Part shown: one piece after another, positions 28,213 through 33,136 of the stretch
How positions within the stretch are numbered: position 1 is the first letter of the stretch
Layout of the letters: every line of letters starts with the position of its first letter
DNA from: a virus
Taxonomy: Duplodnaviria > Heunggongvirae > Uroviricota > Caudoviricetes
Reading direction: 5' to 3' (one strand)
IMG/VR virus record: IMGVR_UViG_3300014204_000107
Coordinates: 43,468 to 107,467 of that record
Length of the DNA stretch: 64,000 nt
Notes under the pieces: generated by a model
What the model was told of the DNA's origin: nothing
What the model saw: the letters and a program-made list of their open reading frames with translations, nothing else
The model's database searches: none
Made by a program: the position numbers and the translations under genes

Positions 28213-29550
28213 ATGATAACAATTAAATTACCATATAATACAACTGATAAGTTTTATACAAAATTATTAGAATTGCGTAAGCAACAATCATCTGTGGTTA
28301 GGTTTAGCTTTAATAGATACCATGACGGAGTTAAACAAAAAGAAATTCGTAATAGATGCAAAAAATTAAATAATTTTGATAAATTAAATTCGTGGCTATT
28401 ACAATGTGGCATCATGGAAGGTGCACAATTATATACGAGATTTAAACATAAACCAAATATCATATTTGGTAGTAAATTTAATTTCAATCAGCGCATTAAA
28501 AATAAAATTACAAAAGAAGAATATCAATTAACTCGGTTATTACCGTTAAATGTTCAAGGAGCCACGTCATGTGGTAATAGAAATTTTGAATTAAATATTA
28601 TTGATGAAAATTTTATTTTATTTAAACCAAATAGGAAAGAACATTATATTTTACATTTACCTAAACTACGCAGCAACATTAAAAAACAATTATTTAAACT
28701 TCAAGAATTAGTAGAATTAAAACAATTGTCATACTCAATTAAATTGTCTGATAAATATGTTGCAATTTCATTTAATTTACCAAATGATAATACAATTAAA
28801 AATAATAAAACTTGTTATATTGGTATAGATTTAAATCCAGATAATATTGGGATTAGCATTTGTAATTATGAAAATGATAATCATAAAATAATCTGTACTA
28901 AAATGTTTGATATATCCCAAATATTTAATAAATTTGTTGCATTAAATGAACCATCTTATTCAATTAAATCAAAATATTATCAAAATAAATTGCAATTTGA
29001 AACTATTGAAATATCAAAACAAATAATTAAATTAGCAAAACAATATAAAGTAAGCAATATATTTATTGAAAAATTAGATTTTAATGCTAAAGTTGCAAAT
29101 ACATTTAATAATATTGGTAATAGAAAATGCAAAAACATATGGAAAAGAGAATTATTTATAGAACAATTAAGTAAGAGATGCAAGATCAATAGTATTGCAA
29201 TAAACAAAATACGCCCGGCATATACGAGTTTTATAGGAAATATACAATATAATTATGCTGATTCAATCAATGCAAGCATTGAAATTGGTAGAAGAGGATA
29301 TGAATTAAAAATAAATAACAATACTGATAGATTTTATCCAGCTATTGTAGCAAAACACCAATGGAAGGAAATGGCTGCTACTGCAAGTACTTGGAAGAGT
29401 TTATTTAGTAAAATAAAAAACTTGAAATTGAAATATCGAGTTCAGCTTGAAGATGCACTTTCAGTGCATAAACATGCTGTTTTTAGTTTAAATCATGCAA
29501 TAAAAAGCAAAGTCAAAGTTTATAATTTTGATAATGTATTGATGATTTAG
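28213..29550 (+). CDS. TnpB-like (IS200/IS605 OrfB / Cas12-like) RuvC nuclease lacking the canonical CxxC…CxxC zinc finger
   Basis: RuvC-I CYIGIDLNPDNIGIS, RuvC-II NIFIEKLDFN, TSF plus RuvC-III ADSINASIEIGRRG; extreme AT/Asn-Lys richness unlike neighbours. Confidence 0.55.
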   Translation: MITIKLPYNTTDKFYTKLLELRKQQSSVVRFSFNRYHDGVKQKEIRNRCKKLNNFDKLNSWLLQCGIMEGAQLYTRFKHKPNIIFGSKFNFNQRIKNKITKEEYQLTRLLPLNVQGATSCGNRNFELNIIDENFILFKPNRKEHYILHLPKLRSNIKKQLFKLQELVELKQLSYSIKLSDKYVAISFNLPNDNTIKNNKTCYIGIDLNPDNIGISICNYENDNHKIICTKMFDISQIFNKFVALNEPSYSIKSKYYQNKLQFETIEISKQIIKLAKQYKVSNIFIEKLDFNAKVANTFNNIGNRKCKNIWKRELFIEQLSKRCKINSIAINKIRPAYTSFIGNIQYNYADSINASIEIGRRGYELKINNNTDRFYPAIVAKHQWKEMAATASTWKSLFSKIKNLKLKYRVQLEDALSVHKHAVFSLNHAIKSKVKVYNFDNVLMI

Positions 29551-29945
29551 ATATTTTAGCAAGATCAAAAGTTTTGAATATTATTGTATAGCATCAAAAT
29601 TTAAATTAAAAATGAAATATGTGCAGGAAGAGAACTATTTGCAGCATTCAACAAAAATGTTGCATTTAGTTCTTTTTTTTATGAATATTTTTTTGTATGT
29701 TTGTGGTAATTAATCCATTAAAATCAAATTAAATGAATCCAGCCATTGGGGTGAAAGTCTTCACCGTAAGTACCAGTCCTTCCAACGATGATCTGGGGAT
29801 GAACTAACAAGTGCAATTAAAATATGGAGTGAAGCACACCCAGAGTTCTATATTCTTGACGTTCAGTGTGCAACTTCTAAATTTTTGTGCATAGTCACTA
29901 TCAAATATGAAATGCCTTATTAAAATAAACCAATAAAAACAAACA
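29551..29945 (+). ncRNA. ORF-free structured region downstream of the TnpB-like gene; candidate omega-RNA/reRNA scaffold plus guide
   Basis: Multiple local hairpins (e.g. GTGAA-AGTC-TTCAC); position expected for TnpB right-end RNA. Confidence 0.3.
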
Positions 29946-33034: not shown

Positions 33035-33107
33035 GCATAGGTAGATTTAATTGGTAAAATCCCTTCATTTTAGGAGGAAGATGGTGGTTCGATTCCACCT
33101 CTATGCA
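33035..33107 (+). tRNA. tRNA-Lys (anticodon UUU), no encoded CCA
   Basis: 7-bp acceptor (GCATAGG/TCTATGC), D-arm GATT/AATC with GG loop, anticodon loop AUUUUAG (U33, A37), T-arm GGTGG-TTCGATT-CCACC; N26 register ambiguous. Confidence 0.55.
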
Positions 33108-33136
33108 CAAACAATAAACAATTTAAAAACTGCACG

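What the first reader, a model, noticed from the sequence alone, without database searches (positions are those of the whole stretch)
28213..29945. Zinc-finger-less TnpB-like RuvC nuclease with extreme AT bias and a 400-nt ORF-free structured 3' tail (omega-RNA candidate), inserted next to the Ro60 locus
All three RuvC motifs are present: GIDLN (D), FIEKLDFN (E), ADSINASIEIGRRG (D). The CxxC…CxxC zinc finger that normally sits between RuvC-II and RuvC-III in TnpB/Cas12 is missing; only two lone Cys remain. The gene is far more AT- and Asn/Lys-rich than its neighbours, as expected for a recently acquired element. It is followed by about 400 nt with no ORF but several hairpins. TnpB guide RNAs are encoded exactly there, at the 3' end and downstream flank. 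It could be an active RNA-guided nuclease hitch-hiking in the phage (IS1341-like) or a domesticated Cas12-like effector. A ZnF-less active-site-intact variant would be of interest for miniature genome editors.
Basis: partly seen in the sequence, partly recalled or inferred. Interest (0 to 1): 0.75.

Follow-up and report, generated by a model that had tools for sequence, protein, structure and literature searches.

The report
Phage TnpB-like mobile nuclease, guide-RNA inside gene
This is a solo copy of a small selfish DNA element that spreads among large AT-rich phages. It encodes a zinc-finger-less relative of the RNA-guided nuclease TnpB, and its probable guide-RNA scaffold lies inside the last 140 nt of the gene, not in the 400-nt tail downstream.

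Summary
ORF 28213-29550 (445 aa) is a real, very AT-rich gene with an invariant D206/E286/D350 triad and no CxxC zinc finger. It belongs to the TnpB/Cas12 superfamily by fold (Foldseek E 6.6e-10 to Cas12f, 2.4e-7 and 3e-6 to TnpBs) and by sub-threshold NCBIfam TnpB profiles. Pfam OrfB models and HMMER searches of PDB sequences miss it.

It is a member of an already named family. It is 34% identical over its full length to the TnpB of ISCaje4 in Campylobacter phage CP220. Relatives are multicopy in huge phages, and some still carry an IS607-type serine recombinase. The window copy has none.

The "400-nt omega-RNA tail" is wrong. All copies lose homology right after a conserved "TATTTTA", which in the window ends at 29558, 8 nt past the stop codon. 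The tail is flanking phage DNA with one terminator (29626-29678) and an unstructured spacer.

A conserved structured RNA lies at 29414-29558. 91% of pair cells are paired, 37 of 47 pairs show compensatory changes, and G·U pairs outnumber A·C 150 to 18. In CP220 the same model ends exactly at the right end defined by empty sites in sister phages.

The most likely function is an RNA-guided homing nuclease whose guide is read from 29559 onward. This is a new member of a known kind, of moderate interest.

The parts
28156..28212 (+). Putative left end and promoter region of the element. The boundary is tentative. It starts with TAAAATTTTCG..., resembling the TAAAAATTAAC left end of relatives, and contains a TATATATA box.
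   Evidence: It lies directly after the Ro60 terminator at 28121-28148. Relatives have a left end starting TAAAAATTAACAATAATTT and TATATA boxes upstream of the ATG. It is not alignable to the closest homologues, so this part is inferred.
28213..29550 (+). TnpB-like RuvC nuclease gene, 445 aa, without a zinc finger (ISCaje4-TnpB family; precomputed Pfam label PF27229 SSO2105_N).
28828..28830 (+). RuvC-I catalytic Asp206 (GIDLNP), at the end of strand beta-1.
   Evidence: Invariant in 59 sequences. Position; secondary structure.
29068..29070 (+). RuvC-II catalytic Glu286 (IEKL), at the end of strand beta-4.
   Evidence: Invariant. Positions.
29215..29259 (+). The stretch where canonical TnpB carries its C4 zinc finger. 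Here it is a 15-residue linker, PAYTSFIGNIQYNYA, containing one short helix and no Cys.
   Evidence: Alignments A1 and A2. The model shows helix 338-345 between beta-5 (329-333) and the RuvC-III helix.
29260..29262 (+). RuvC-III catalytic Asp350 (DSINASIEIGRRG), at the N-terminus of helix 350-367.
   Evidence: Invariant. Positions.
29365..29505 (+). Codons 385-431, which show excess conservation of synonymous sites. This marks an overlapping nucleotide-level function.
   Evidence: Pairwise codon identity is 0.80-0.84 observed against 0.54-0.63 expected.
29414..29558 (+). Candidate omega-RNA (reRNA) scaffold: 137 nt inside the ORF plus 8 nt beyond the stop codon.
- Stem S1: 29419-29425 with 29436-29442.
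- Hairpin A: 29443-29479.
- Long-range stem: 29486-29496 with 29542-29552.
- Inner hairpin: 29498-29540.
   Evidence: The covariance model R1 hits at 49 bits, E 4e-7, covering the full model. The window's own minimum-free-energy fold has the same architecture, with z = -4.11. G·U pairs far outnumber A·C.
29552..29558 (+). Right-end terminus TATTTTA. It is the last sequence shared by family copies.
   Evidence: Alignments of 29 copies diverge immediately after this motif. In CP220 the equivalent point is the insertion junction defined by empty sites.
29559..29580 (+). Putative guide segment, GCAAGATCAAAAGTTTTGAATA: flanking phage DNA that would be transcribed as the 3' end of the omega-RNA. Its length is assumed.
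   Evidence: Inferred from the TnpB paradigm (PMC8612924, PMC10690162) and from the position of the right end. Not tested.
29626..29678 (+). Intrinsic terminator: a long hairpin followed by a T8 run. It probably ends the tnpB/omega-RNA transcript. It lies in the flank, not in the element.

Best explanation
Window ~28156-29558 is a solo (transposase-less) copy of an IS607-derived mobile element. This element family is confined almost entirely to large, AT-rich phages. Its named relative is ISCaje4 of Campylobacter phage CP220.

The single gene encodes a divergent TnpB-superfamily nuclease. It has the WED/REC-like N-terminal half and a RuvC domain with an intact D206-E286-D350 triad. The C4 zinc-finger insert is replaced by a 15-residue linker, and a conserved ~75-residue C-terminal domain follows.

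The last ~140 nt of the gene, plus 8 nt beyond the stop codon, double as a structured RNA that ends exactly at the element's right end (TATTTTA, 29558). By analogy with TnpB, read-through into the adjacent phage DNA (29559 onward) would give this RNA a 3' guide. The RNA-protein complex would then cut genomes that carry the same site without the insertion, for example a co-infecting sister phage. Recombinational repair from the element-bearing genome would copy the element in. This is RNA-guided homing, or retention of the element.

What is shown:
- fold and family membership;
- the conserved triad and the absence of the zinc finger;
- mobility and multicopy status of the family;
- the right-end boundary;
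- a covarying sense-strand RNA structure that ends at that boundary.

What is inferred:
- that the RNA is bound as a guide;
- the TAM;
- DNA cleavage;
- homing.
For: Protein:
- The AF2 model has pLDDT 88 and pTM 0.75.
- Foldseek against PDB gives near full-length matches at probability 1.0: Cas12f (E 6.6e-10), ISFba1 TnpB (2.4e-7), Cas12k, ISDra2 TnpB (3e-6) and Fanzor2.
- NCBIfam TIGR01766 hits 52 of 59 family members (best E 5e-9), tspaseT_teng_N 49 of 59, and guided_TnpB 6 of 59 (best 1.9e-7).
- D206, E286 and D350 are invariant.

Mobility:
- At least 4 copies sit in one 292-kb phage, with unrelated neighbours. Several other contigs hold 2-3 copies, and Lak phages hold 1-5.
- Full Resolvase+HTH TnpA genes lie directly upstream in L051, L032, L072, L050 and L061, with decayed fragments elsewhere.
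- The CP220 copy is annotated as ISCaje4.
- Its joined flanks are contiguous in about 10 sister phages, which defines a 1715-bp insertion with TA...TA junctions.
- A 95%-identical copy sits at a different locus in phage F379.
- The window copy has the largest GC deficit of 38 copies.

RNA:
- Synonymous sites are over-conserved in codons 385-431.
- Hairpin A forms in nearly every copy from different sequences.
- On 31 sequences, 91.2% of pair cells are paired against 77% in shuffles, 37 of 47 pairs have double-sided changes against 17, and sliding the partners gives 30-53% paired.
- There are 150 G·U cells against 18 A·C cells.
- The window fold has z = -4.11.
- The model's 3' end coincides with the point where homology is lost in all copies. 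In CP220 it coincides with the empirically defined junction, 2901|2902.
Against: - There is no experimental or transcript evidence.
- The TAM could not be derived. Left flanks show only a weak ...RT|TA pattern.
- No empty-site allele of the window locus was found.
- The window's left end is only tentative.
- Pfam OrfB_IS605 and OrfB_Zn_ribbon, and HMMER searches against PDB sequences, do not detect the family.
- The zinc-finger/TNB insert present in characterised TnpBs is absent. It is unknown whether the C-terminal domain substitutes for it.
- The covariation counts come from an alignment fitted to the model, and part of the structure lies in coding sequence.
- I could not inspect the model's coordinates to measure the active-site geometry.
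Confidence: 0.7

Rival explanations
1. The protein is a RuvC-fold nuclease that does not use a guide RNA, for example a protein-directed homing endonuclease or a junction resolvase. On this reading the conserved structure at the 3' end of the gene is a cis element: an mRNA stability or translation signal, or a recombinase or packaging site.
For: - The zinc-finger/TNB insert found in characterised TnpBs is missing.
- PHROGs gives a faint Holliday-junction-resolvase hit.
- The F379 copy moved with only ~19 nt of upstream sequence, so it did not move by two-ended transposition.
Against: - The fold match to TnpB and Cas12f covers nearly the full length, including the N-terminal half, and is not limited to the RuvC core.
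- TnpB-specific NCBIfam profiles hit most family members.
- The structure ends exactly at the element boundary.
- It is strand-specific, with 150 G·U cells against 18 A·C cells.
- It has the multi-helix architecture and the position typical of omega-RNAs.
- IS607-type TnpA is a serine recombinase, which acts on duplex DNA (established knowledge), so it would not need hairpins at the ends.
Confidence: 0.15
2. One reading: the guide-RNA scaffold is encoded in the ~400-nt ORF-free tail (29551-29945), which is part of the element.
For: - The whole tail folds slightly better than shuffles on the + strand (z = -2.58).
- TnpB guide RNAs do extend past the stop codon in known systems.
Against: - Family copies share nothing beyond TATTTTA, 8 nt after the stop. 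In other copies the next gene starts 50-190 nt downstream.
- The fold signal of the tail comes from one terminator hairpin.
- 29685-29945 gives z +0.35 and -0.60.
- There is no Rfam hit, no similarity in related loci, and no significant hit of the covariance model there.
Confidence: 0.03
3. The gene is a domesticated, immobile phage gene, for example a nuclease-dead-like regulator, an anti-defence factor or a Cas12-like effector, rather than a selfish element.
For: - The window copy has no transposase.
- It sits in a same-strand gene row and may have its own promoter (the TATATATA box is only tentatively assigned).
- Every contig found that carries the identical Ro60 or p139 protein also carries the insertion.
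Against: - The catalytic triad is intact.
- Contexts are non-syntenic and multicopy.
- Insertion/empty-site polymorphism is seen among Campylobacter phages.
- No synteny was seen in the related Ro60 locus (one, L005) or the 17 related p139 loci.
- There is a strong compositional offset.
- No CRISPR array or repeat is present nearby.
Confidence: 0.07

Closest known systems
ISCaje4 of Campylobacter phage CP220 (Timms et al. 2010, PMC2853527; record NC_027997.1, annotated 128167-129880)
   Same: - It is the same protein family: 34% identity over the full length, E 5e-56, with the same D/E/D positions and the same zinc-finger-less PxYSSFIGN linker.
- It also has a phage host.
- The same 3' RNA model hits it (51.6 bits) and ends at its right end.
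- It has TA-bounded ends.
   Different: - ISCaje4 keeps an 80-aa resolvase-like TnpA remnant upstream. The window copy has none.
- The two are only 34% identical.
- ISCaje4 was filed under IS200/IS605 (subgroup IS608) in 2010, without any RNA or nuclease analysis.
- Its annotated ends differ from the empty-site-defined ends by 27-29 nt.
IS607-family TnpB / OMEGA systems (e.g. ISFba1 TnpB with RAGATH-18-derived reRNA, PDB 8iaz, PMC11061315; ISDra2 TnpB, PDB 8exa/8h1j, PMC8612924, PMC10097598)
   Same: - The overall fold matches.
- It has the RuvC triad.
- Relatives are associated with a serine-recombinase TnpA.
- A structured RNA overlaps the 3' end of the gene and ends at the right end, with the guide expected from the flank.
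   Different: - It has no C4 zinc finger.
- It has an extra conserved C-terminal domain (aa ~368-440).
- Pfam OrfB models do not recognise it.
- The RNA does not match RAGATH-18 or any other Rfam family.
- The distribution is almost only in phages.
TnpB major clade RIIIr-4 of Altae-Tran et al. 2023 (PMC10691335)
   Same: It is described as lacking the C4 zinc finger and as enriched in viruses.
   Different: In RIIIr-4 the RuvC-III aspartate is replaced by histidine. Here an aspartate (D350) is invariant, although it sits 3 residues rather than 2 before the conserved N-A motif. Membership could not be tested, because the paper's supplement and tree are not available.
Free-standing homing endonuclease genes of T4-like and jumbo phages
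   Same: It is a selfish nuclease gene inserted between phage genes. It may carry its own promoter (inferred from TATATA boxes). It is variably present among close relatives. Spread by cleavage and repair during co-infection is expected (PMC10448857, PMC11620839).
   Different: Target recognition is presumably by RNA rather than protein, and the fold is RuvC/TnpB rather than GIY-YIG, HNH or LAGLIDADG.

Membership tests
TnpB superfamily (OMEGA RNA-guided nucleases) | RNase-H/RuvC domain with a D-E-D catalytic triad split into motifs I-III | tested here: met
TnpB superfamily (OMEGA RNA-guided nucleases) | Full-length architecture: an N-terminal WED/REC-like half followed by RuvC | tested here: met
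   Foldseek alignments of 420-470 columns to Cas12f, ISFba1 TnpB, ISDra2 TnpB and Fanzor2, all at probability 1.0. The NCBIfam N-terminal model tspaseT_teng_N hits 49 of 59 members. Global TM-scores are low (~0.3), as expected when an apo model is compared with RNA-bound structures.
TnpB superfamily (OMEGA RNA-guided nucleases) | C4 zinc finger (OrfB_Zn_ribbon / TNB) between RuvC-II and RuvC-III | tested here: not met
   No CxxC occurs in any of 59 members. A 15-residue linker stands in its place. PMC10691335 reports that some large TnpB branches have lost the zinc finger, so it is typical but not universal.
TnpB superfamily (OMEGA RNA-guided nucleases) | Recognition by curated sequence profiles | tested here: inconclusive
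   Pfam OrfB_IS605 and OrfB_Zn_ribbon give no hit in 59 members. HMMER against PDB gives none. NCBIfam TIGR01766 hits 52 of 59 (best E 5e-9; the window protein scores 6e-4, 20.2 bits, against a cutoff of 32) and guided_TnpB hits 6 of 59.
TnpB superfamily (OMEGA RNA-guided nucleases) | A structured omega/reRNA overlapping the 3' end of the gene and ending at the transposon right end, with the guide taken from the flank | tested here: met
   The structure and its end point are met in silico. Actual binding and guide use cannot be tested with these tools.
IS607 family (serine-recombinase TnpA plus TnpB) | An adjacent TnpA with HTH and Resolvase catalytic domains | tested here: not met
   It is absent from the window copy: tblastn finds one gene only, and the upstream neighbour is Ro60. 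It is present in relatives L051, L032, L072, L050/L044 and L061, with Resolvase PF00239 E 3e-21 plus HTH_17. Remnants occur in L025, L033, L028, L034, L036 and ISCaje4.
IS607 family (serine-recombinase TnpA plus TnpB) | Defined ends with a shared crossover dinucleotide and no long target duplication | tested here: inconclusive
   The CP220 versus CPt10 empty-site comparison shows TA|element|TA with a single TA in the empty site. Main-subfamily left ends start with TA and right ends finish with TA. The window's left end is not defined. L046 shows an unexplained ~52-nt flanking repeat.
   No Y1 transposase lies next to any copy examined; the transposases found are serine recombinases. No left-end hairpin is conserved. 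The right-end structures show a G·U bias, which argues for RNA.
Type V CRISPR-Cas (Cas12) | An adjacent CRISPR array and/or adaptation genes | tested here: not met
   No repeats or array lie around the gene. The neighbours are Ro60, a 139-aa membrane protein and an SPFH protein.

The most novel reading that the evidence does not exclude
This could be a phage-restricted, zinc-finger-less TnpB clade. A conserved C-terminal domain would replace the TNB/zinc-finger module, and that domain would be dual-coded with its own guide-RNA scaffold, with only 8 nt of the scaffold non-coding. The whole unit would be ~1.4 kb. It would work as an RNA-guided homing endonuclease between co-infecting large phages and would spread even without its serine recombinase, as the solo copy in F379, which retains only ~19 nt upstream of the ATG, suggests.
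Probability: 0.45. Interest if true: 0.55.

Novelty: new member of a known kind. Interest (0 to 1): 0.4.

Why it matters
If the model is right, it extends RNA-guided "homing" by TnpB from bacterial chromosomes to competition between co-infecting phages, a role so far assigned to protein-guided homing endonucleases.

It also offers a culturable test system. ISCaje4 in CP220 can be tested against the empty site in CPt10, CP21 and CP20.

It would show a TnpB that works without the zinc-finger/TNB insert, and whose guide-RNA scaffold is almost wholly embedded in coding sequence. That is useful for understanding the minimal requirements of Cas12 ancestors.

As an editor scaffold it has no size advantage at 445 aa.

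For annotation, the lesson is practical. The family is missed by Pfam OrfB models, and the ISCaje4 ends in the public record are 27-29 nt off.

Tried and rejected
1. Pfam, PHROGs and HMMER against PDB with the single protein and with the family profile gave no TnpB hit. I therefore relied on fold search and NCBIfam.
2. Rfam at gathering and at E<=10 gave no family in the gene's 3' end or in the tail, and no Y RNA near Ro60.
3. I looked for a second copy in the window and found none.
4. I looked for synteny in relatives through Ro60 and the 139-aa downstream gene. The p139-p218 pair is conserved in 17 loci, but none has Ro60, the TnpB-like gene or a similar upstream spacer.
5. A plain MAFFT plus RNAalifold run on all tails found only stem S1, because the variable-length hairpins were misaligned. 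Per-sequence folding and a covariance model solved this.
6. I searched for an empty-site allele of the window locus. Exact flank patterns are absent from the viral and metagenome collections. Contigs with identical Ro60 or p139 all carry the insertion. An apparent 13-nt indel in L083 is a run of N.
7. I tried to derive the TAM from nine left junctions and found only a weak R-T|TA pattern. I rejected it as not conclusive.
8. The closest homologues (P0002, P0003, P0006) share no upstream similarity with the window, so its left end stays undefined.
9. The literature search for SSO2105 (the Pfam family name) returned nothing. The supplement of PMC10691335 is not held. The afdb50 fold library was unavailable.
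10. I considered clade RIIIr-4 as the home of this family and did not adopt it, because that clade has His at RuvC-III.
Full report
**1. What is there**

The window is a low-GC (0.346) stretch of a ~299-kb phage contig. ORF 28213-29550 (+) encodes 445 aa.

The gene is strongly AT-biased. Its GC is 0.239 and its GC3 is 0.152, against 0.32-0.40 for its neighbours. Asn+Lys make up 23.6% of its residues, against 13-17% in the neighbours.

Upstream lies a TROVE/Ro60 + vWA gene (26670-28118; Pfam TROVE 3e-19, PHROG 850 "RNA-binding protein" 1e-38) with its own terminator at 28121-28148. Downstream come a 139-aa membrane protein, a 218-aa lipoprotein-like protein and an SPFH protein. The window holds only one copy of the gene.

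**2. The protein is a divergent TnpB**

Curated sequence models largely miss it:
- Pfam gives no OrfB_IS605 or OrfB_Zn_ribbon hit, either for the protein or for any of 59 relatives.
- HMMER against all PDB sequences finds nothing, with the single sequence or with the family profile.

NCBIfam does see it. TIGR01766 ("TnpB-related") gives E 6e-4 for the window protein, which is below the cutoff. It hits 52 of 59 relatives (best 5e-9). The N-terminal model tspaseT_teng_N hits 49 of 59, and guided_TnpB hits 6 of 59 (best 1.9e-7).

An AlphaFold2 model built on 59 homologues is confident (pLDDT 88, pTM 0.75).
- Foldseek against PDB returns near full-length matches at probability 1.0 to Cas12f (E 6.6e-10), ISFba1 TnpB (2.4e-7), Cas12k, ISDra2 TnpB (3e-6) and mimivirus Fanzor2.

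D206, E286 and D350 are invariant in the family. In the model they sit at the end of beta-1, the end of beta-4 and the start of a helix, which are the RNase-H-fold positions.

The zinc finger really is absent. After the TnpB-like "PAYTS" motif there are only ~10 residues (FIGNIQYNYA) before D350. No member has a CxxC, and the window's C306 and C323 are not conserved. A conserved C-terminal domain follows, covering aa ~368-440 and including W384, K385, W394, Y408 and R409.

I could not measure the active-site geometry, because the model's coordinates are not exposed.

**3. The family is known, mobile and almost confined to phages**

The family is large: 414 hits in the 90%-identity protein database and 1581 clusters at 50% identity. 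Some sources label members "IS605 OrfB family transposase". The precomputed Pfam label is PF27229 "SSO2105_N", for which I found no literature.

In annotated phage genomes it occurs in Campylobacter Firehammervirus phages (CP220, F379, CJLB-13, WX1), in Lak megaphages (1-5 copies each) and in uncultured huge phages.

The CP220 copy is annotated as insertion sequence ISCaje4, with a resolvase-like TnpA remnant plus "TnpB". It was named by Timms et al. 2010 without functional study. It is 34% identical to the window protein over its full length (E 5e-56), with the same triad and the same zinc-finger-less linker.

A motif scan of one genome from each of 185,579 bacterial and archaeal species found only two hits, both on short MAG contigs. 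The scan is pattern-based, so distant cellular relatives could have been missed.

Mobility is well supported:
- One 292-kb phage holds at least 4 copies among unrelated neighbours. Other contigs hold 2-3.
- Several copies have a complete HTH + Resolvase serine recombinase directly upstream, overlapping the TnpB start (Pfam Resolvase 3e-21). This is the IS607 arrangement. Others keep only N- or C-terminal fragments of it.
- The joined flanks of CP220's ISCaje4 are contiguous (about 88-92% identity) in CPt10, CP20, CP21, F379, CJLB-12/13, WX1 and CC_R7. That defines a 1715-bp insertion. The empty site reads ...GTTTATTA|TATAACTAGT.... The occupied site reads ...TTTA|ATAGAAAGG...TATCTTA|TATAACTAGT..., that is, TA at both junctions.
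- Phage F379 carries a 95%-identical copy at a different locus.

The family's GC stays at 0.19-0.29 whatever the host's GC. The window copy shows the largest deficit of 38 copies (-0.12). This fits a fairly recent arrival in a GC-richer phage.

**4. Where the element ends, and what the "tail" is**

Alignment of paralogues and of 29 distinct copies shows that similarity stops immediately after a terminal motif, consensus (TTGAATTTTG)TATTTTA. In the window this is ATATTTTA at 29551-29558, directly after the TAG stop codon. In other copies the next gene starts 50-190 nt further on. The 400-nt tail is therefore flanking phage DNA.

Within the tail:
- The only convincing structure is a long hairpin followed by T8 at 29626-29678, an intrinsic terminator.
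- 29685-29945 folds no better than shuffles (z +0.35 and -0.60).
- It has no Rfam match.
- It has no counterpart upstream of the homologous downstream gene in 17 related loci.

**5. The structured RNA is inside the gene**

Synonymous sites are over-conserved in codons 385-431: pairwise codon identity is 0.80-0.84 against an expected 0.54-0.63.

Between two invariant nucleotide blocks (GAAATATCGAGTTTC and GTTTTT), nearly every copy forms a closed hairpin from different sequences:
- window: CAGC..ATGCACT TTC AGTGCAT..GCTG
- L032: CATTAAATGAATGT AA ACATTCATTTAATG
- L028: CTTTAGAAGATT GTAAAA AATCTTTTAGAG

The mean z-score is -2.6 even with several segments cut short.

RNAalifold on the main subfamily predicts, in order:
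- a stem S1;
- this hairpin A;
- a long-range stem pairing an internal ORF segment with the last bases before TATTTTA;
- two inner hairpins.

A covariance model of these 148 positions finds every copy on the sense strand. That includes the window at 29414-29558 (49 bits, E 4e-7, full model).

On 31 sequences:
- 91.2% of pair cells are standard pairs, against 77.0% in shuffles (0 of 500 reach the observed value).
- 37 of 47 pairs show changes on both sides, against 17.0 in shuffles.
- The covariation score is 0.276 against 0.111.
- Sliding the partners by 1-3 columns drops pairing to 30-53%.

G·U cells outnumber A·C cells 150 to 18. This argues for a sense-strand RNA rather than duplex or antisense signals.

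The window segment on its own folds into the same architecture, with the minimum-free-energy structure equal to the centroid (-37.3 kcal/mol, z -4.11).

Caveats: the alignment was fitted to the model, and most of the RNA is also coding sequence.

An independent check comes from CP220, which was not used to build the model. There the hit spans L078 2768-2901. The empty-site comparison puts the right junction at 2901|2902.

**6. Mechanism proposed**

The anatomy matches the TnpB/OMEGA paradigm (PMC8612924, PMC10097598, PMC10690162): a TnpB-fold nuclease, and a scaffold RNA that overlaps the gene's 3' end and stops at the right end. A guide would be supplied by read-through into the flank, here 29559 onward, with the transcript ending at the 29626-29678 terminator.

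The complex would cut alleles that lack the insertion. In a phage, that means a co-infecting relative. Recombinational repair would then copy the element in.

Spread without a transposase is suggested by the solo copies, which keep only ~20-100 nt upstream of the ATG.

RNA binding, the TAM, cleavage and homing are all inferred. I put 0.7 on this model. The rivals are listed with their evidence in the rival-explanations section.

**7. Comparison with known systems, and novelty**

The element is a new, solo member of the ISCaje4-like IS607-type family. It differs from characterised TnpBs in several ways:
- it has no zinc finger;
- it has a conserved C-terminal domain;
- its RNA is unrelated to RAGATH-18 or any other Rfam family;
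- its distribution is almost phage-only.

Zinc-finger loss in large TnpB branches, and virus-enriched branches, were already reported (PMC10691335). The one such clade described in the text (RIIIr-4) has His at RuvC-III, unlike this family.

My verdict on novelty is "new member of a known kind". Interest is moderate (0.4). The most useful outcomes are the relocated RNA, the corrected ISCaje4 ends and a culturable system for testing RNA-guided homing between phages.

Noticed in passing
window 26160-26600 (+), upstream of the Ro60/TROVE gene at 26670-28118: Four tandem units of ~85-115 nt start at 26166, 26249, 26343 and 26458. Each begins TATTT..GTGGCAA/GTAGCAA..GAGTTACTTCAA, and their 5' and 3' ends can pair (AAATGAG...CTCATTT). 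Unit 3 contains a tRNA T-arm-like GGTTCAACTCC, and a terminator follows at ~26540-26578. The whole 751-nt spacer folds with z = -4.07. This looks like a cluster of Y-RNA (YrlA-like) genes next to the phage Ro60, but Rfam finds no match.
   Followed up: partly
window 33035-33108 (+): A tRNA gene (Rfam 42.6 bits) whose anticodon ARAGORN cannot assign ("tRNA-???", anticodon given as "tt"). It probably has an unusual anticodon loop.
   Followed up: no
L046 (IMGVR_UViG_3300002898_000188), about 270-341 and 1658-1710: The TnpB-like gene is flanked by an imperfect ~52-nt direct repeat (GATGG[T/A]CAAAA..TTGCGTAATTTGATTTATTAAAAAATTTATATATATA). The repeat comprises the last 11 codons of the upstream gene plus a TATATATA promoter-like box. 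The second copy starts immediately after the right-end TATTTTA. This is far too long for a transposase target duplication and remains unexplained.
   Followed up: partly
L078 = Campylobacter phage CP220 NC_027997.1, 126953-131335: The annotated ISCaje4 repeat_region (locus 1215-2928) does not match the insertion defined by empty sites in sister phages (locus 1187-2901). The last ~29 nt of the element resemble the left flank of the target (18 of 29 identical to CPt10), which may bear on target choice.
   Followed up: partly
L087 = Campylobacter phage F379 MT932329.1, 139389-140806: The family member is annotated as two overlapping "putative endonuclease" ORFs (F379_161 and F379_162), so it is probably a frameshifted or split copy. 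It is 95% identical in DNA to the CP220 element but sits next to an RNA ligase A gene.
   Followed up: no
L028 versus L034 (two IMG/VR contigs): The two contigs carry the same element copy and an identical right flank, but unrelated sequence to the left of the left end. The element sits at a breakpoint of genetic exchange between related phages.
   Followed up: no
L064-L066, L069, L070, L073 (IMG/VR loci): A longer subfamily of 525-547 aa, ~30% identical to the window protein. It keeps the C-terminal RuvC motifs (xDPxNASIEIGRRG) and the zinc-finger-less linker, and has an extra ~90-residue coiled-coil-like insert near the N-terminus. The RNA model gives only weak hits there (22-25 bits).
   Followed up: no
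window 24747-25631 (+): A glycoside hydrolase family 16 gene (Pfam E 4e-18) lies in the same gene row as Ro60. This is an unusual cargo gene for a phage.
   Followed up: no
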